Of a stretch of DNA of 40,764 nucleotides, positions 2,826 through 40,581 are shown in pieces (the stretch's first letter is position 1; every line of letters starts with the position of its first letter). Source of the stretch: Candidatus Uhrbacteria bacterium RIFCSPHIGHO2_02_FULL_57_19 (GTDB lineage: Bacteria; Patescibacteriota; Patescibacteriia; 2-12-FULL-57-11); contig MGDZ01000004.1 of the NCBI GenBank assembly GCA_001791115.1, positions 1-40,764 on the forward strand, in the 5' to 3' direction. Both the position numbers and the translations under genes were made by a program. The notes beneath the pieces were generated by a model. That model worked only from the letters and a program-made list of their open reading frames with translations. It ran no database searches and was not told the DNA's origin.

Positions 2826-3215
2826 ATGGAAGCCGCAGCGGAAACAACTAAAAGCGCAGGCCTGCCTGCCGGCAGGCAGGCGCGAAAAAAGAAGGGCGAG
2901 GAGGAAGAGGTCAAAAACCGGATCCGCATTAAGATCCGCGCCCACGACCACCGGATCATTGACCAGTCAACCAAGACCATCATCGAAACCGCTGAGAGAA
3001 GCGGAGCTTCGGTCGTCGGTCCGATTCCGCTGCCCACCGAGAAGCGCAAGTACACGGTCAACCGCTCGACCTTCGTTCACAAGGATTCCCGCGAACAGTA
3101 CGAGATGCGGGTGCACAAGCGGTTGATTGATATCGTTGATCCCACGCCGCGGACCATTGATTCTCTGATGAGTCTAAATCTTCCGGCTGGAGTTGATGTG
3201 GAAATAAAAATGTGA
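2826..3215 (+). CDS. rpsJ: 30S ribosomal protein S10 with a ~27-aa N-terminal extension
   Basis: [17 protein letters not shown]...[21 protein letters not shown] is canonical S10. No ATG/GTG/TTG occurs between ATG-2826 and the conserved core, so the extension, which carries the palindrome, appears to be translated. Confidence 0.88.
2860..2881. repeat. REP-like perfect palindrome CCTGCCTGCCGGCAGGCAGG (copy 1 of 3)
   Basis: Self-complementary 20-mer at 2861-2880, 22 nt with the flanking G/C pair. Related copies at 22131-22151 and 40498-40518. Confidence 0.85.
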
Positions 3216-16902: not shown

Positions 16903-17367
16903 ATGAATCTCCCAAACTTTGATAGTCGAAATAAACGTATCGTCATCTGCGCCAGCGCGTCTTGCTATCGCCAGGCGCTCGACGCTGCCGACGTGCTTAC
17001 CTCGCGCGGGTACGCGGCCACCGTGCCGAAGGTTGCCGCTCGTATGCGCGAGATAGGCGATTATCGGGTGGAGACCTACAAGACCTGGTTTCAGAACCCC
17101 GATGATTATTCCATGAAGAACGATTATGTCCTCTCACACTTTCGTGAAATAGCGGAAGGCGACGCAGTGCTGGTTGTAAACGAGCCGAAGAACGAGGTTG
17201 CCGGTTATATCGGCGGTGCTGTACTTATGGAGATGGCGATTGCCTTGTATCTTGGGAAGCCAATTTTTCTTTTACATCCACCAGCAGAACAGTCGCCATA
17301 CCTCGAGGAGATTCTCGCGATGCAGCCGATGGTGCTAGATGGTGATCTTACGAAATTATCATTATGA
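16903..17367 (+). CDS. Nucleoside 2-deoxyribosyltransferase-like (NDT/Rcl fold) protein
   Basis: RIVICASAS...GYIGGAVLMEMAIALYLGKPIFLL matches the NDT-family G-x-x-x-E-x-G/A...GKP motif. ATGA overlap with ruvX. Confidence 0.55.
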   Translation: MNLPNFDSRNKRIVICASASCYRQALDAADVLTSRGYAATVPKVAARMREIGDYRVETYKTWFQNPDDYSMKNDYVLSHFREIAEGDAVLVVNEPKNEVAGYIGGAVLMEMAIALYLGKPIFLLHPPAEQSPYLEEILAMQPMVLDGDLTKLSL

Positions 17368-32126: not shown

Positions 32127-32296
32127 AACGTCTTTTTCAGCATAACACGGCCTCAAATTAGCTCAAAATGGCCTAGTAGTCGGCTTTGTTGACAAATTTC
32201 TCGACCTTGTGCTACCTTACCGCCACCTCTCAAGGGGGAGAGGCGGTCATTTACACAACGAAGCCATCGAGAAGTCTCGATGCAAGGAGGAAAGTC

Positions 32297-33127
32297 ATGG
32301 ATATCGTGACCAGCCCCCGCATCGAGGCCATGGTCTTCGATGCGATGTTTACCCTGCTCTTGGCCAAGGGTTCACGGCGGAAAATGATGGCCAAGATATT
32401 CCTTAAGCACCTGCGTCGAATAGCCAAGCGCTTGGGTATCAAGTTCCGACCGAGCAAAGGGTTCGCGCGGCGTCTGATGCGGATCACCAAAAGGGTCCGC
32501 GAAGCAACCCCGCCCACCCGGGACTACGGTCGCGATTGGTCTCGAGTAAACCGGCGGATTGCCGCAGAGATGTTGGGCGTTTCTGAGGAACTAGTCCTCA
32601 TGGAGGAGGGGCTGGCTATCCACCAGGAGGTCCTGTCCGACCCGGACCACTACGAGGTTCCGCGGAACATTCGGGAGATGCTCAAGCTCGCCAAGAAATT
32701 GGGTTTCCGCCTGGCCATCGCCTCCAACCAGAATGAAGCGGACCTCCTGCCGATGCTCGAGAAGCACAAGATCGGAGACTTCTTCGAGAAAGTGCTCTGC
32801 TCGGACAAACTGGGGATCTGCAAGCCGGACCCCGACTTCTTCAAGCGGGCTTACGCCGAGATCGGCGTCGCGTCGGAGTCAGTCTGCTACATCGGCAACA
32901 GCATCCGCAACGACCTGTCTGCCGCTTGGATCGGTTCTCGGGTAGTGCTCATCGACTACGACGGGGGCCTGAAGATCAATGAGACCGGCGGGGGTCTCTA
33001 CCTGGTCAAGGTCGTACGCAACATCGAGGAGCTATGCGATTGGCTGGGGGAGCAGGCCAAGTCTCCGATCAAGGGGCCGGCCAAGGCGTCGGATGCGGCC
33101 GTTTCACGCAGGGCCGTAAACGAATAG
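32297..33127 (+). CDS. HAD-superfamily hydrolase, haloacid-dehalogenase-like (motif I DxM, not DxD)
   Basis: MVFDAMFTLL (motif I), IASNQ (motif II), GNSIRND (motif IV). ATG-32297 lies 6 nt after AGGAGG (32285-32290). Confidence 0.75.
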   Translation: MDIVTSPRIEAMVFDAMFTLLLAKGSRRKMMAKIFLKHLRRIAKRLGIKFRPSKGFARRLMRITKRVREATPPTRDYGRDWSRVNRRIAAEMLGVSEELVLMEEGLAIHQEVLSDPDHYEVPRNIREMLKLAKKLGFRLAIASNQNEADLLPMLEKHKIGDFFEKVLCSDKLGICKPDPDFFKRAYAEIGVASESVCYIGNSIRNDLSAAWIGSRVVLIDYDGGLKINETGGGLYLVKVVRNIEELCDWLGEQAKSPIKGPAKASDAAVSRRAVNE

Positions 33128-33149
33128 GGCGGTACGCGCTTTTCCCCGC

Positions 33150-33187
33150 GCGCCGAGCGGACGAACGTTCTGCCCGGCGCTTTTTTT
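33150..33187 (+). terminator. Intrinsic terminator after the HAD gene
   Basis: GCGCCGAGC...GCCCGGCGC stem (one mismatch) followed by TTTTTTT. Confidence 0.7.
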
Positions 33188-33204
33188 ATCACCCGTACAC
33201 GCCC

Positions 33205-33233
33205 TTGACATTTTTTTGCGGCTTTGCTATCGT
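33205..33233 (+). promoter_or_regulatory. Sigma70-like promoter with no ORF downstream
   Basis: TTGACA 33205-33210, 17-nt spacer, TATCGT 33228-33233. Confidence 0.45.
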
Positions 33234-33331
33234 GGGCGGCAGTGATGCTAGGGCGGGCGCAAGCCCATCCCAAAAACTCGAACGCTCCTCGGTTCTCGTT
33301 CCTTGAGCCGGGGAGCTTTCGTTTGTTGACA

Positions 33332-33355
33332 GGGGGTAGGGTATAGGGGGTAGGG
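33332..33355 (+). repeat. G-quadruplex-type tract G5-TA-G3-TATA-G5-TA-G3
   Basis: Read directly: GGGGGTAGGGTATAGGGGGTAGGG. Confidence 0.7.
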
Positions 33356-33450
33356 AGTAGTTTGATATACTCAAAGCGGCGGGGATTGAGGCGTACCCTA
33401 GCATCACCAAGTTTAGGGGTTCACGCACTCGCCCCGCCATACGATAGGTT

Positions 33451-33475
33451 GTAGGGAGTAGAGTGTAGGGAGTAG
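33451..33475 (+). repeat. Tandem GTAGGGAGTAG x2 (14-nt period); a third copy lies at 33350-33360
   Basis: GTAGGGAGTAGAGT GTAGGGAGTAG. Confidence 0.85.
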
Positions 33476-33488
33476 ATATAATAAAAAA

Positions 33489-33515
33489 GACCCCCGGTGG
33501 GGGTCTTTTCGTTTG
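33489..33515. terminator. Bidirectional intrinsic terminator (topA on the minus strand; candidate ncRNA on the plus strand)
   Basis: AAAAAA-GACCCCC-GGT-GGGGGTC-TTTTCGTTT. Confidence 0.8.
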
Positions 33516-33519
33516 ATAA

Positions 33520-35757
33520 TCAAGCGGTTTCGGCCGCTTGGGAATAATCGCACTCCTTACTGGAACAGCGGAGCGTTCCCTTGGCGCCGTAGACAATAAG
33601 CGAGCCGCATTTGGGGCATTTTTCTCCGGCGGGTTTTGACCACAGGGCGAAGTCGCAGTTGGGGTATTGGTTGCAGGCATAGAAATTTTTGCCGCGTCGC
33701 GTGCGCTTCTCCACGATCTCTCCCTTGCCGCATTTGGGGCAAGGAACGCCGGTTCCTTTCTGAAGCGGCTTGTGCCCTTTGCAGTCAGGATAATTGGTGC
33801 AGCGAAGATATTTTCCATACCGTCCCTCGACTATTTCAAGTTTTTCTTTATTGCATTCAGGGCAGATCTCTTCCGTAATAATCCGTTCCGCGGCCTCCTT
33901 GCCGCCCTCAGCAAGCGGGCGGGTGTTGCGGCAGTCGGGGAAACCGGTGCAAGCCAGAAATCTTCCAAATCGCCCCGTTTTGATGACCATCGGCTTTCCG
34001 CATTTGTCGCAGACCACGTCGGTCGGCTCTTCGGCGATTTCTTTTTTGATGATTTCCCCCTCTTTTTTCGCCAGCAGCGCGGAGAAAGGTTCCCAGAATT
34101 CGCGGACCACTGGCACCCATTTTTTTTCACCCTCGGCAATCCCGTCGAGGTCCTCCTCCATCTTGGCGGTGAACTGAAAATCCACGATCTCCGGAAAATG
34201 TTCGACCAGAAGATCATTTACCAGAAAGGCAATCTCGGTCGGTTTCAGGCGCCGGCCCTCGATACGCTCCACGTATCCGCGATCCTGGATGGTGGCAATG
34301 GTCGGCGCGTAGGTTGATGGGCGCCCAATTCCATGTTCTTCTAGCGCTTTGACCAGTGAGGCGTCGGAATACCGTGGAGGCGGTTCGGTGAAATGCTGTT
34401 TCGGTTCGACGGACTCGAGGGTCAGCGCGTCGTTTTCCTCGACTTTCGGCAGGAGCGTGTCTTTCTGGCCCTCGGGCGTGATTGCCAGGAAGCCGGGGAA
34501 CTTCAGGACTGATCCGGTGGCGCGCAGCAGGTAGCTTGCCTTTGTTTTTGCGCTTTGGACGTCCACAGTGGTCGCTTCAAGTTCTGCCTCAGGCATTTGC
34601 GAGGCCATGGCCCGGCGCCAGACCAGGTCATAGAGTTTCCATTGGTCCGGGTCCAGGACATCCTTGAGCGCGTCGGGTGCGCGGCGCGCTTCGGTGGGAC
34701 GGATGGCCTCGTGCGCTTCCTGGGCGAGTTTCGATTTGGTAGTGAAACGCCGCGGCGAAGGGAGGGCGTACTCATTGCCGAGCGCTTGCGCGAGATGCTC
34801 CGCGGCCTCGGTTAGGAATTTCTCCGACAGATTCACTGAATCGGTTCTCATGTAGGTGATGAGGCCCACGGATCCTTCGCCGGGAACGTCCACGCCTTCG
34901 TAGAGTCGTTGAGCAAACATCATGGTCTGCTTGGCGCTAAACCCAAGCTTGCGGTTGCCGTCTTGCTGAAGAGTAGAGGTGATGTAGGGTGGCGGGGGAG
35001 TGCGCCGGATTGTCTTCCGTTCGACGCGAGCCGCGCTGAAGGCTCCTTTTTTCAGGTCGTGGACCAGGCCTTCCGCCTGATCCGAGGAGGCGATGAAAAG
35101 TTTTTCCAGCGTATGACCATCGACCGCGTGGAGTTTGGCGGTAAAGGCGTTTCCATCCGGAGTTTTGAAAGTGGCCTCGATCGTCCAGTATTCTTGTTTG
35201 ACGAACGTCTGGACCTCCCGTTCGCGTTCCACAATGAGGCGCACGGCCACTGACTGCACGCGTCCGGCTGAAAGCCCGCGGGCCACCTTGCGCCACAGGA
35301 ACGGCGAGAGTTTGTAGCCCACCAGCCGGTCGAGGATTCTGCGCGCCTGCTGGGCGTCTACCATGCGCAGGTCGATGGACCGGGGTTTTTTGAACGCTCC
35401 GTCGATTGCCTCTTTGGTAATCTCGTGGAAGGTGATGCGTTTCACACGCGCCGGATCCGTGCCGAGGATCTCGGAGAGATGCCAGGAGATGGCCTCGCCC
35501 TCGCGGTCTTCGTCAGTGGCGAAGTAGATGGTTTTCGCTTCTTTTGCCGCTTTTTTGAGCTCATTCGAGGTTTTTTTGCTCTTAGTCGGGATGACGTAGC
35601 GGGGAGTGAAATCGTGTTCAAGGTCGATCCCCAGATCGCTCTTGGGAAGATCCCGGATATGACCAAACGAGGACTTCACCAGAAAGTCCTTACCGAGGAA
35701 ACGTGAAATTGTTTTCGCCTTGGTCGGCGACTCTACGATGACCAGGTTTTTTGCCAT
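33520..35757 (-). CDS. topA: DNA topoisomerase I with four C-terminal zinc ribbons
   Basis: MAKNLVIVESPTKAKTI Toprim start; repeated CxxC...CxxC modules at the C-terminus. The ORF track begins 4 codons earlier, at 35769. Confidence 0.96.
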   Translation of the reverse strand: MAKNLVIVESPTKAKTISRFLGKDFLVKSSFGHIRDLPKSDLGIDLEHDFTPRYVIPTKSKKTSNELKKAAKEAKTIYFATDEDREGEAISWHLSEILGTDPARVKRITFHEITKEAIDGAFKKPRSIDLRMVDAQQARRILDRLVGYKLSPFLWRKVARGLSAGRVQSVAVRLIVEREREVQTFVKQEYWTIEATFKTPDGNAFTAKLHAVDGHTLEKLFIASSDQAEGLVHDLKKGAFSAARVERKTIRRTPPPPYITSTLQQDGNRKLGFSAKQTMMFAQRLYEGVDVPGEGSVGLITYMRTDSVNLSEKFLTEAAEHLAQALGNEYALPSPRRFTTKSKLAQEAHEAIRPTEARRAPDALKDVLDPDQWKLYDLVWRRAMASQMPEAELEATTVDVQSAKTKASYLLRATGSVLKFPGFLAITPEGQKDTLLPKVEENDALTLESVEPKQHFTEPPPRYSDASLVKALEEHGIGRPSTYAPTIATIQDRGYVERIEGRRLKPTEIAFLVNDLLVEHFPEIVDFQFTAKMEEDLDGIAEGEKKWVPVVREFWEPFSALLAKKEGEIIKKEIAEEPTDVVCDKCGKPMVIKTGRFGRFLACTGFPDCRNTRPLAEGGKEAAERIITEEICPECNKEKLEIVEGRYGKYLRCTNYPDCKGHKPLQKGTGVPCPKCGKGEIVEKRTRRGKNFYACNQYPNCDFALWSKPAGEKCPKCGSLIVYGAKGTLRCSSKECDYSQAAETA

Positions 35758-35763
35758 GAGGAT

Positions 35764-35843
35764 AACCATTACGAACTACGAACTTTTACGAATGTACGAA
35801 GAATGATTCGTACATTGGTACTCATTTGTAGTTCGTAATGGTT
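35764..35843. repeat. Nested palindrome in the topA leader
   Basis: The outer 16-bp arms are AACCATTACGAACTAC (35764-35779) and GTAGTTCGTAATGGTT (35828-35843). The inner 10-bp arms are AATGTACGAA (35791-35800) and TTCGTACATT (35807-35816). Confidence 0.9.
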
Positions 35844-35861: not shown

Positions 35862-35890
35862 AACATACGGTCTGCGGTCTCGACTGTCAA
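35862..35890 (-). promoter_or_regulatory. Sigma70-like promoter for topA
   Basis: Minus strand: TTGACA (35890-35885), 17-nt spacer, TATGTT (35867-35862). TTGACGCAC direct repeats at 35894-35902 and 35905-35913 lie just upstream. Confidence 0.5.
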
Positions 35891-40438: not shown

Positions 40439-40450
40439 AGGCTTCTTCCT

Positions 40451-40547
40451 ATTATGAGACTGTAGAAAAACTCCATTTCTGCTGCGATCACGCTGTTCCT
40501 GCCTGCCGGCAGACAGGCGAAAGCGAGTTCTTCTACAGTCTCATTAT
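40451..40547. repeat. 17-bp inverted repeats (1 mismatch) bracketing REP-like palindrome copy 3
   Basis: ATTATGAGACTGTAGAA (40451-40467) pairs with TTCTACAGTCTCATTAT (40531-40547). CCTGCCTGCCGGCAGACAGGC lies inside, at 40498-40518. Confidence 0.85.
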
Positions 40548-40581
40548 AGAGGAGCATCTTACTCTTGGCCACGATTAAATC

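What the first reader, a model, noticed from the sequence alone, without database searches (positions are those of the whole stretch)
33188..33519. Terminator-bounded 300-bp orphan block with its own promoter: candidate ncRNA carrying G-tracts and GTAGGGAGTAG repeats
Most intergenic gaps in this window are 0-50 bp. This 390-bp convergent gap is different.

Boundaries and content:
- It sits between the HAD-gene terminator (33150-33187) and a strong bidirectional terminator (33489-33515).
- A good promoter lies immediately after the first terminator: TTGACA, 17 nt, TATCGT at 33205-33233.
- The ~270 nt downstream has no credible ORF.

Internal elements:
- A GNRA hairpin, GGGC-GCAA-GCCC.
- A perfect 12-bp long-range inverted repeat: GTGATGCTAGGG at 33242-33253 with CCCTAGCATCAC at 33396-33407.
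- A canonical G-quadruplex-type run, G5-TA-G3-TATA-G5-TA-G3, at 33332-33355.
- Three copies of the 11-mer GTAGGGAGTAG at 33350, 33451 and 33465, the last two in tandem with a 14-nt period.

I could not match the sequence to the conserved motifs I know for SRP RNA, tmRNA, RNase P RNA or 6S RNA. The repeated AGGGAG cores could be protein-binding sites (sponge-type sRNA), SD-like mimics or iteron-like DNA sites. All of that is inference.
Basis: partly seen in the sequence, partly recalled or inferred. Interest (0 to 1): 0.6.

Follow-up and report, generated by a model that had tools for sequence, protein, structure and literature searches.

The report
Orphan transcript carrying genome-wide heptad repeats
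The odd repeats in this 390-base gap are two copies of a seven-base-period repeat scattered between genes across this tiny groundwater bacterium and many of its relatives, sitting on what is probably a small non-coding transcript of unknown role.

Summary
The two most striking ones are not specific to this locus. The GTAGGGAGTAG copies and the G-run are two arrays of a heptad repeat, with TAG every 7 nt for 4-5 units. This 0.96-Mb Patescibacteria genome has 54 such arrays, nearly all between genes.

Seven-base-period arrays of 3-6 units occur by the dozen to more than 100 in many genomes of the class. The heptads differ from genome to genome. A near-complete genome of the same family has none. 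Between congeneric species the arrays tend to stay in the same gaps while the heptad family changes.

The gap also holds a sigma-70-type promoter that is very likely real, a 166-nt segment with a well-defined predicted fold (z -4.45), and a bidirectional terminator. A non-coding RNA of about 275 nt is therefore plausible.

That RNA matches no Rfam family and has no homologue in 60 relatives. No RNA data exist for it. What the arrays do is unresolved. Links to RAYT transposases, G-quadruplexes, HutP and CsrA were tested and are weak or absent.

The parts
33150..33187 (+). Hairpin plus T7 run after the HAD hydrolase gene (stop at 33125-33127); a possible terminator
   Evidence: Sequence. Fold (z -1.2, weak). 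Not reported by the terminator scan.
33205..33233 (+). Sigma-70-type promoter TTGACA-17-TATCGT with TG before the -10 hexamer. The predicted start is about 33240-33241, just before the closing stem.
   Evidence: 10/12 match; matches of 10/12 or better split 100 intergenic to 17 coding genome-wide, although 84% of the genome is coding. The same hexamer pair occurs at two other gaps.
33242..33407 (+). 166-nt segment closed by a perfect 12-bp stem. It holds a GCAA-loop hairpin, a 12-pair hairpin and heptad array 1.
   Evidence: I12; -75.7 kcal/mol, z -4.45. No other copy in the genome. No match in 60 relatives.
33337..33360 (+). Heptad array 1: TAGGGTA TAGGGGG TAGGGAG TAG (four TAGs, 7 nt apart). 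It is also a canonical G4 motif when read from 33332.
   Evidence: TRF finds period 7 with 4.3 copies at 33331-33360. G4 motif listed.
33445..33475 (+). Heptad array 2: TAGGTTG TAGGGAG TAGAGTG TAGGGAG TAG (five TAGs). It contains the tandem 14-nt unit.
   Evidence: The same 24-mer occurs at contig C19:7992-8015. A 96% identical 24-mer occurs in a genome of another family.
33484..33510 (.). Bidirectional intrinsic terminator (A run, 11-12-pair GC-rich hairpin, T run). It serves topA on the minus strand and the orphan unit on the plus strand.
   Evidence: z -3.65 on the plus strand and -4.17 on the minus strand.

Best explanation
The HAD-topA gap is a species-specific non-coding spacer. It most likely gives a stand-alone transcript of about 275 nt (33241 to about 33515), running from its own sigma-70 promoter to the shared bidirectional terminator.

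Its conspicuous GTAGGGAGTAG copies and G-run are two copies of a dispersed intergenic repeat built from heptads. The pattern is (G/A/T)TAG plus three variable bases, 4-5 units, 28-35 nt. This repeat class is spread over the whole genome and over many, but not all, Patescibacteria.

Shown:
- The repeat family exists.
- Its period is strictly 7 nt.
- Its length is narrow (3-6 units, mode 4).
- It lies almost only between genes, in either orientation.
- Its presence among genomes is patchy.
- It tends to persist in the same gaps between species while the heptad sequence is replaced.

Inferred:
- The arrays behave like REP/BIME-type elements. They are short dispersed sequences tolerated or kept in gaps, often arranged as inverted pairs around a small palindrome.
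- They probably act, if at all, as a register-dependent platform of about 28-35 nt for some nucleic-acid-binding factor, or as transcript punctuation. They are probably not sequence-specific motifs of this particular RNA.
- This locus is therefore an orphan transcription unit that carries two such arrays.
For: The repeat family in this genome:
- Among arrays of at least four copies at 7-nt spacing, TAG has 35. That is the top of all 64 trinucleotides (next GTA 21, ACT 11, others 7 or fewer, GAT 0).
- There are 54 arrays with three or more TAGs: 19 with 3 units, 28 with 4, 7 with 5.
- 31 of the 35 arrays with four or more units are intergenic. Orientation is mixed: 12 sense-sense, 11 antisense-antisense, 4 in divergent gaps, 3 in convergent gaps.

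The repeat family across the class:
- The four-TAG pattern occurs in 97 of 151 genomes of the class. Several have 90-106 hits against 0-8 in the reversed control.
- In the complete genome G018, TAG arrays exist only at period 7 (79 arrays; 0 at periods 4-6 and 8-12).
- G018 has 192 period-7 arrays of any sequence, against 9 or fewer at periods 5, 6 and 8-11.
- In 906 kb around topA from 160 diverse Patescibacteria loci there are 34 period-7 arrays, against 1-5 at other periods.
- The same-family genome G005 (1.087 Mb) has none.

Persistence of position between species:
- Of 12 G018 array loci with the orthologous site covered, 8 hold an array in a congener (3 the same heptad family, 5 a different one).
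- 18.5% of gaps hold an array overall, so the chance of 8 or more of 12 is 3e-4.

The locus itself:
- Promoter reliability.
- Terminator.
- Structured segment.
- No coding signal.
Against: - No RNA evidence is available.
- The structured segment and the block as a whole have no detectable relative, so the 'RNA gene' part rests on prediction alone.
- Both strands fold about equally well (z -3.9 and -4.2).
- The REP-like reading fails several REP tests. Single arrays do not fold (0 to -1 kcal/mol). The RAYT-like genes are not flanked by heptad arrays. Co-occurrence with Y1 transposases across 151 genomes is weak (odds ratio 2.6; 17 of 63 array-rich genomes lack the gene; 19 of 42 genomes with zero pattern hits have it).
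- Replacement of one heptad family by another at the same site is not what a sequence-specific binding platform predicts.
- My gene calls come from a home-made ORF caller, so the 'intergenic' counts are approximate.
Confidence: 0.55

Rival explanations
1. This is a trans-acting regulatory sRNA whose two UAG-heptad arrays are its working parts. It acts as a decoy or sponge, presenting the same platform that a heptad-reading protein binds in the spacers of many operons.
For: - Likely promoter, terminator and structured 5' domain.
- Both arrays lie on the predicted transcript and are unpaired on their own.
- Many arrays elsewhere end 1-20 nt before a start codon.
- In G018, gaps with arrays are depleted of promoter-like sites (4 of 101 against 42 of 277 for gaps of 40-200 nt). 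This suggests they are transcribed inside operons.
- One 31-nt array is 100% identical between species whose flanks are 70% identical.
Against: - No candidate protein was found. HutP and CsrA were not found in four array-rich genomes.
- Arrays occur in both orientations relative to genes.
- Heptad families are swapped at orthologous sites.
- No homologue of the RNA was found.
- No RNA data exist.
Confidence: 0.15
2. The arrays are non-autonomous mobile elements of the REP/REPIN type, moved by the RAYT-like Y1 transposases of the genome. GTAG serves as the recognition tetranucleotide, and the gap is a landing site.
For: - G000 has four Y1_Tnp matches. For the four genes scanned, three from G000 and one from G018, the only NCBIfam hit is REP-associated tyrosine transposase, at 39-65 bits against a cut-off of 80.
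- Two of them are flanked by their own palindromes.
- A 20-21-bp palindrome with 54 copies sits next to or inside TAG arrays in 8 of 54 cases, against 1.0 expected.
- Arrays often form inverted pairs around a central palindrome.
- Y1_Tnp was present in 17 of 20 array-rich genomes and 5 of 20 array-free genomes that I picked.
Against: - In the unselected sample of 151 genomes the link is weak (odds ratio 2.6, p 0.007, no correction for kinship). Array-rich genomes of 96-100% completeness lack the gene.
- No heptad array lies within 1.5 kb of 6 of the 7 Y1 genes examined.
- Single arrays have no hairpin.
- Arrays stay at the same sites between species, which is unlike recent transposition.
- That GTAG is the REP foot is recalled from the literature, not tested here.
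Confidence: 0.15
3. The arrays are G-quadruplex-forming heptamer repeats like GGGNATC of Xanthomonas and Nostoc. Array 1 folds into a G4 that modulates the transcript or its template.
For: - Array 1 is a canonical G4 motif.
- The preference for four units, the intergenic location, and G-rich strands antisense upstream of ORFs or sense after stop codons in G018 match the abstract of PMC4692102.
Against: - Only 3 of the 42 canonical G4 motifs in the genome overlap TAG arrays.
- Array 2 has only two G3 tracts.
- Heptad families without G tracts (TAGTCCG, TAGGTTA, TAGATAT, TAACTKT) show the same preference for four units.
Confidence: 0.08
4. The arrays are neutral by-products of replication slippage (heptanucleotide microsatellites) that survive only where they break no gene. 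The gap is simply slack DNA, or the remnant of a lost gene with a leftover promoter.
For: - Heptanucleotide repeats are the commonest long simple repeats in many bacteria (Mrazek 2007, as cited in the introduction of PMC4679880).
- MutS was not found in five of these genomes.
- One orthologous array differs by a single base in every unit (CATGGTT against CTTGGTT), as concerted evolution would give.
- The block is not conserved.
Against: - Unit number peaks at 4 and never exceeds 6.
- Units within an array differ at set positions while TAG is invariant.
- A few discrete heptad families are shared by tens of loci per genome.
- A same-family genome that also lacks MutS has no arrays.
- The same strain in four other runs shows unchanged arrays.
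- No translated similarity was found for a lost gene.
Confidence: 0.12

Closest known systems
G-rich heptamer repeats GGGNATC / GGGGA(C/T)T of Xanthomonas and Nostoc (Rehm et al. 2015, PMC4692102; abstract and outline read)
   Same: - 7-nt unit.
- Spread over the genome and over-represented in non-coding DNA.
- Clear preference for four units.
- G-rich strand antisense upstream of ORFs or sense after stop codons.
- Array 1 of this locus is a canonical G4 motif.
   Different: - Here the invariant part is TAG, not the G tract.
- Most arrays of this genome cannot form a canonical G4.
- G-free heptad families share the four-unit preference.
- The organisms belong to a different phylum.
TAACTGA heptamer direct repeats of marine Beggiatoaceae, some Cyanobacteria and Bacteroidetes (MacGregor 2015, PMC4679880; abstract, introduction and summary read)
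   Same: - Short sets of 2-6 heptamers.
- Intergenic, and often a few bases before a start codon where no Shine-Dalgarno sequence is seen.
- Patchy distribution among relatives.
- No known binding protein.
- Stop codons fall in all three frames.
- The relative G018 has about 65 TAACTKT arrays.
   Different: - There it is one exact heptamer, mostly in forward orientation upstream of genes.
- Here there are several degenerate families per genome, in both orientations, in all kinds of gaps including convergent ones, and often as inverted pairs.
REP / BIME / REPIN elements with RAYT transposases (abstracts seen in the listing; details of the GTAG foot are recalled)
   Same: - Tens of short intergenic copies, in either orientation, often as inverted doublets.
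- Lineage-specific.
- RAYT-like genes are present in the genome.
- GTAG is present in every unit.
   Different: - REPs are palindromes, whereas heptad arrays are tandem direct repeats without a fold.
- RAYT-like genes here are flanked by other palindromes, not by heptads.
- Co-occurrence is weak.
STRR heptanucleotide tandem repeats of heterocystous cyanobacteria (recalled; only fingerprinting papers appeared in the listing)
   Same: Tandem heptamers in several sequence families, intergenic, function unknown.
   Different: Not compared in detail here. I did not read the primary descriptions.
HutP binding sites (UAG-N4-UAG-N4-UAG) of the Bacillus hut operon (recalled)
   Same: Same spacing of UAG triplets on RNA.
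   Different: - No HutP family protein was found in five genomes searched.
- Arrays occur in both orientations and at tens of loci.

Membership tests
Any curated RNA family (Rfam 15) | Covariance-model score at or above the family's gathering threshold | tested here: not met
   - Only four tRNAs in the window reach threshold.
- In 33100-33600, at E up to 10, there are only terminator-type partial hits far below threshold.
REP/REPIN-RAYT system | The repeat unit is an imperfect palindrome that folds into a hairpin | tested here: not met
   - The two arrays fold at 0 and -1 kcal/mol, no better than shuffles.
- Arms of inverted pairs are no more complementary than arms taken from different pairs (0.88 against 0.91).
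REP/REPIN-RAYT system | The RAYT gene is flanked by copies of its own repeat | tested here: not met
   - No period-7 array lies within 1.5 kb of 6 of the 7 Y1 genes examined.
- Two of the genes are flanked by other palindromes.
REP/REPIN-RAYT system | The repeats co-occur with a RAYT gene across genomes | tested here: inconclusive
   - 46 of 63 array-rich genomes and 45 of 88 array-poor genomes have Y1_Tnp (odds ratio 2.6, p 0.007, kinship not corrected).
- NCBIfam REP_Tyr_transpos scores are 39-65 bits, below the cut-off of 80.
REP/REPIN-RAYT system | Conserved GTAG tetranucleotide at the foot of the repeat (recalled feature) | tested here: inconclusive
   - In this genome 74 of 112 units are followed by G, so that the next TAG reads GTAG.
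- Relatives use TTAG or heptads without TAG.
G4-forming heptamer repeats (Rehm 2015) | Four consecutive G3+ tracts per array | tested here: not met
   - Met by array 1 only.
- Only 3 of the 42 G4 motifs in the genome overlap TAG arrays.
G4-forming heptamer repeats (Rehm 2015) | Preference for four units, and non-coding location | tested here: met
   - Units 3/4/5 = 19/28/7 in this genome.
- Units 3/4/5/6 = 37/53/25/1 in G018.
- 31 of 35 and 77 of 79 arrays with four or more units are intergenic.
G4-forming heptamer repeats (Rehm 2015) | Quadruplex formation in vitro | not testable with these tools
   Needs CD or thioflavin-T assays on the oligonucleotide.
TAACTGA heptamer repeats (MacGregor 2015) | Direct repeats of exactly TAACTGA, forward orientation, just upstream of start codons | tested here: not met
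   - The heptads here are TAGNNNN.
- Orientation is mixed.
- This locus lies in a convergent gap with no downstream gene.
HutP-type antiterminator site | UAG triplets spaced by four bases, plus a HutP protein | tested here: not met
   The spacing is met. PF09021 was not found in G000, G018, G085, G024 or G005, while the control rings in Bacillus subtilis.
Csr/Rsm sponge RNA | Multiple GGA motifs, plus a CsrA protein | tested here: not met
   - PF02599 was not found in the same five genomes.
- The rsmX hit is at 12.9 bits against a threshold of 56.

The most novel reading that the evidence does not exclude
Patescibacteria carry an undescribed class of cis-elements, about 4 x 7 nt long, that are stable in position but fluid in sequence. 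Some factor reads or builds them in a 7-nt register, independently of the actual heptad. The four-unit preference that was attributed to G-quadruplexes in Xanthomonas and Nostoc would then be a general property of bacterial heptamer repeats. On this reading, the present locus encodes a small RNA that displays two such platforms as a decoy.
Probability: 0.15. Interest if true: 0.8.

Novelty: new variant of a known kind. Interest (0 to 1): 0.5.

Why it matters
Short tandem heptamer repeats between genes have been described in cyanobacteria, Xanthomonas and Beggiatoaceae, and no function has been agreed for them.

Finding them in the streamlined 1-Mb genomes of Patescibacteria is notable because spare DNA is scarce there. 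The features seen here are a strict 7-nt period, a narrow length, clean presence or absence between related genomes, and retention at the same gaps while the heptad is replaced. Together these give a compact comparative system for asking what such repeats do.

My searches of the paper library found no report of them in this phylum.

For annotation, the result is a warning. Motifs that look like the signature of a special RNA at one locus may be generic dispersed repeats.

Tried and rejected
Searches for a relative of the block or its RNA:
- Rfam at the gathering threshold and at E up to 10: nothing but tRNAs and terminator look-alikes.
- DNA search of the block in 40 relatives: only the heptad arrays match.
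- Single-sequence covariance model of 33238-33410: it finds only itself in 61 genomes at E up to 1.
- Closer relatives: none. The best topA identity is 60-61% both in one-genome-per-species contigs and in metagenome contigs.

Coding explanations:
- tblastx of the gap against about 4 Mb of related DNA: best E 0.13.
- The 110-codon minus-strand frame against 5.8 billion proteins: no hit.

Sequencing data:
- RNA runs: no RNA holder is listed.
- Contigs of four DNA runs show the same strain with unchanged arrays. This gives no information on selection.

Mobile-element and MITE readings:
- The 166-nt segment bounded by the 12-bp inverted repeat: no second copy of the 12-mer was found.

Gene content shared by G000 and G018 but missing from array-free G005:
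- This gave 25 proteins.
- PolX: 11 of 20 array-rich against 6 of 20 array-free genomes, rejected.
- Y1 transposase: 17 of 20 against 5 of 20 in my chosen panel. This shrank to an odds ratio of 2.6 in the unselected 151 genomes.
- MutS loss as a cause: MutS is absent from genomes both with and without arrays.
- The 252 G005-only proteins were not followed up.

Candidate binding proteins:
- HutP and CsrA were not found.

Other ideas about the arrays:
- Replication-strand bias in G018: counted by hand against the skew, the plus/minus counts are 11/8, 20/20 and 13/7 in the three arms. There is no bias.
- Hairpin covariation in inverted pairs: none.
- Arrays acting as promoters: in G018, gaps with arrays have fewer promoter-like sites, not more. 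In G000 most arrays have no such site nearby.
- Stop codons in all frames as the purpose: some heptad families (CACGTGC, CATGGTA) carry no stop, and orientation relative to genes is mixed.

Full report
**Setting.** The window is contig C4 of a 958,782-base, 69-contig genome (56.7% G+C, 92.7% complete). Its topoisomerase I is at most 60-61% identical to that of any genome or metagenome contig searched. The best matches are named Patescibacteria or Parcubacteria-type candidate phyla. DNA runs holding the window are groundwater and soil metagenomes. The finding lies in the 392-bp gap (33128-33519) between a HAD-family hydrolase gene (32186-33127, plus strand) and topA (33520-35769, minus strand).

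**The observation.** Most gaps in the window are indeed short: 35 of 48 are 50 bp or less in my crude gene calls. Several caveats apply.
- The 12-bp long-range inverted repeat is one of three such perfect repeats in the window.
- The hairpin after the HAD gene is weak (z -1.2) and the scan did not call it.
- The minus strand is open through the whole gap.

**What the repeats are.** GTAGGGAGTAG occurs 11 times in the genome and never in the reversed control. The copies and their flanks show an underlying 7-nt unit, with TAG followed by four variable bases.
- Counting runs of at least four copies of each trinucleotide at 7-nt spacing puts TAG first with 35. GTA has 21, ACT 11, all others 7 or fewer, and GAT 0.
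- There are 54 arrays with three or more TAGs: 19 with three units, 28 with four and 7 with five.
- The G-quadruplex-like run (33337-33360, four TAGs) and the tandem 11-mers (33445-33475, five TAGs) are two of these arrays. Tandem Repeats Finder reports both at period 7.
- The 24-mer of array 2 recurs exactly on contig C19.
- A near-identical array lies in a genome of another family, and an inverted pair of GTAGGGN arrays lies in a genome of the same family.
- Several filler classes exist: TAGGGNG/TAGTGNG, TAGTCYG/TAGACYG and TAGGTTN.
- Of the 35 arrays with four or more units, 31 lie outside called genes, in either orientation and in all kinds of gaps. My gene calls come from a simple ORF and codon-usage caller, so these counts are approximate.

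**How general it is.** The four-TAG pattern occurs in 97 of 151 genomes sampled from the class. Several genomes have 90-106 hits against 0-8 for the reversed control. Three other genomes of the window's own family have none. The fillers differ by genome.

I fetched one complete genome, G018 (1,188,223 bases).
- TAG arrays exist there only at period 7 (79 arrays; none at periods 4-6 or 8-12).
- It has 192 arrays at period 7 of any sequence, against 9 or fewer at periods 5, 6 and 8-11.
- Only 79 of the 192 carry TAG. The rest are TAACTKT (about 65), CATGRWC, CACGTGC and others.
- Unit numbers are 37, 53, 25 and 1 for three to six units, and 77 of the 79 arrays with four or more units are intergenic.

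Other samples agree on how widespread, and how patchy, the repeats are.
- Around topA in 160 diverse Patescibacteria loci (906 kb), period 7 gives 34 arrays against 1-5 for other periods.
- The near-complete same-family genome G005 (1.087 Mb) has no period-7 array at all.
- In the window's genome, with N runs excluded, period 7 gives 30 arrays (22 intergenic) against 0-11 for other periods.

**Persistence.** Two 20-kb stretches of G018 were compared with two congeners whose genes are about 70-75% identical in DNA.
- Of 12 G018 array loci whose orthologous site is covered, 8 have an array at that site in at least one congener.
- Three of the 8 carry the same heptad family and five a different one.
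- At one site, G018 has an inverted pair of TAACTKT arrays, G085 a pair of TAGAYAT arrays and G134 a pair of TAGGGAT arrays.
- One 31-nt array is identical between species amid flanks that are 70% identical.
- Since 18.5% of G018 gaps hold an array, 8 of 12 has a binomial probability of 3e-4.
This is a small sample read from approximate alignments.

**What the arrays are not.**
- Replication signals: they show no strand bias with respect to replication in G018 (hand count against the skew).
- Hairpins: single arrays do not fold, and the arms of inverted pairs do not co-vary.
- G-quadruplex motifs in general: only 3 of the genome's 42 G4 motifs overlap TAG arrays, yet G-free families share the four-unit mode.
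- Promoters: gaps with arrays in G018 have fewer promoter-like sites (4 of 101 against 42 of 277 for gaps of 40-200 nt).
- HutP or CsrA sites: neither protein was found in four array-rich genomes.

**The transposase lead.** Comparing gene content (present in G000 and G018, absent from G005) gave 25 proteins. They include a PolX polymerase and an IS200-like Y1 transposase.
- G000 has four Y1 matches. Of the four genes scanned in NCBIfam, three came from G000 and one from G018. Their only hit is REP-associated tyrosine transposase, below its cut-off.
- Two of them are flanked by their own palindromes.
- A 20-21-bp palindrome, CCTGCCTGCCGGCAGGCAGG, has 54 copies. It lies beside or inside TAG arrays 8 times against 1.0 expected.
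- In 20 array-rich and 20 array-free genomes that I chose, Y1_Tnp was present in 17 and 5. PolX was present in 11 and 6.
- In the unselected 151 genomes the Y1 link is weak. Of 63 genomes with at least 10 pattern hits, 46 have the gene. Of 88 with fewer, 45 have it (odds ratio 2.6, p 0.007, kinship uncorrected).
- Complete array-rich genomes without the gene exist.
- The Y1 genes are not flanked by heptad arrays.
I therefore treat the REP/RAYT reading as a resemblance, not as membership.

**The locus itself.**
- In this genome, sigma-70-like matches of 10/12 or better are 100 intergenic to 17 coding, although 84% of the DNA is coding. TTGACA-17-TATCGT at 33205-33233 is therefore very probably a working promoter.
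- Its predicted start falls one or two bases before the 12-bp closing stem.
- The segment 33238-33410 folds to -75.7 kcal/mol (z -4.45; none of 200 shuffles is as good; the minimum-energy structure holds 13% of the ensemble).
- The terminator hairpin is strong on both strands.
- No coding signal was found.
- These points support a non-coding transcript of about 275 nt that carries both arrays.
- Against it, the minus strand folds as well as the plus strand, nothing similar exists in 60 relatives or elsewhere in the genome, and there are no RNA data.
- Most arrays elsewhere have no promoter nearby, so this locus is atypical for the repeat family.

**Comparison with what is known.**
- The closest descriptions are the GGGNATC heptamer repeats of Xanthomonas and Nostoc. 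They show a four-unit preference, a non-coding location and the same strand rule relative to ORFs (abstract of PMC4692102).
- Next are the TAACTGA repeats of Beggiatoaceae. They occur as short sets just upstream of start codons, are patchily distributed and have no known binding protein (PMC4679880).
- The repeats here differ from both. The constant part is TAG in this genome, several degenerate families coexist, both orientations and inverted pairs are common, and the four-unit mode holds without G tracts.
- Five searches of the paper library found no report of such repeats, or of REPINs, in Patescibacteria. That library lacks most subscription journals.

**Verdict.** The interpretation as a special ncRNA with its own motifs is only partly right. 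The locus is best described as an orphan, probably transcribed, non-coding unit that carries two copies of a lineage-wide heptad repeat. The repeat class is the more interesting result, and its mechanism remains open.

Noticed in passing
window 35764-35843: A 37-nt inverted repeat (84% complementary, 6 nt between the arms) built from TACGAAC heptads lies in the 153-bp dprA-topA gap. It is just downstream of a promoter-like site, TTGACA-17-TATGTT, at 35862-35890 on the minus strand.
   Followed up: partly
window 2861-2880, plus 53 other places in the genome: The 20-21-bp palindrome CCTGCCTGCCGGCAGGCAGG has 54 copies. It often sits inside longer inverted repeats or between direct duplications of the flanking sequence. 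In at least 7 cases it sits in phase inside TAG heptad arrays.
   Followed up: partly
window 40449-40549: A 100-nt inverted repeat (arms of 36 nt, 83% complementary) with a variant of the same palindrome at its centre. Similar elements lie on contigs C24 and C32, so this looks like a REPIN-type family.
   Followed up: no
G000 contigs C1:4260-4973, C25:746-1516, C9:1-525, C52:5890-6255: Four Y1 (IS200/RAYT-like) transposase genes or remnants. The C25 copy is flanked by inverted CCCGGAGCTAAGCTCCGGG hairpins and by a duplication of about 35 nt of the neighbouring gene's 3' end. The C52 copy has two in-frame stops.
   Followed up: partly
G018 (complete genome), about 45 loci: Stereotyped elements made of a GC-rich hairpin whose stem differs between copies with compensating changes, then GGAT, then four TAGNNAT heptads, then GTATTC. 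They often occur as two outward-facing arms around one hairpin, and the outer end lies 4-30 nt from a gene start or stop.
   Followed up: partly
window 16903-17367 (+): A 154-aa ORF with no Pfam match. It has a relative in G018 but none in the array-free genome G005.
   Followed up: no
window 33362-33454 (+): A 30-codon TTG ORF that starts 4 nt after the AGGGAG of heptad array 1 and ends at the first TAG of array 2. There is no evidence that it is translated.
   Followed up: no
G085 and G134 contig ends: Many heptad arrays of these draft genomes lie within a few tens of bases of contig ends. This suggests the repeats break short-read assemblies and are under-counted in draft genomes.
   Followed up: no
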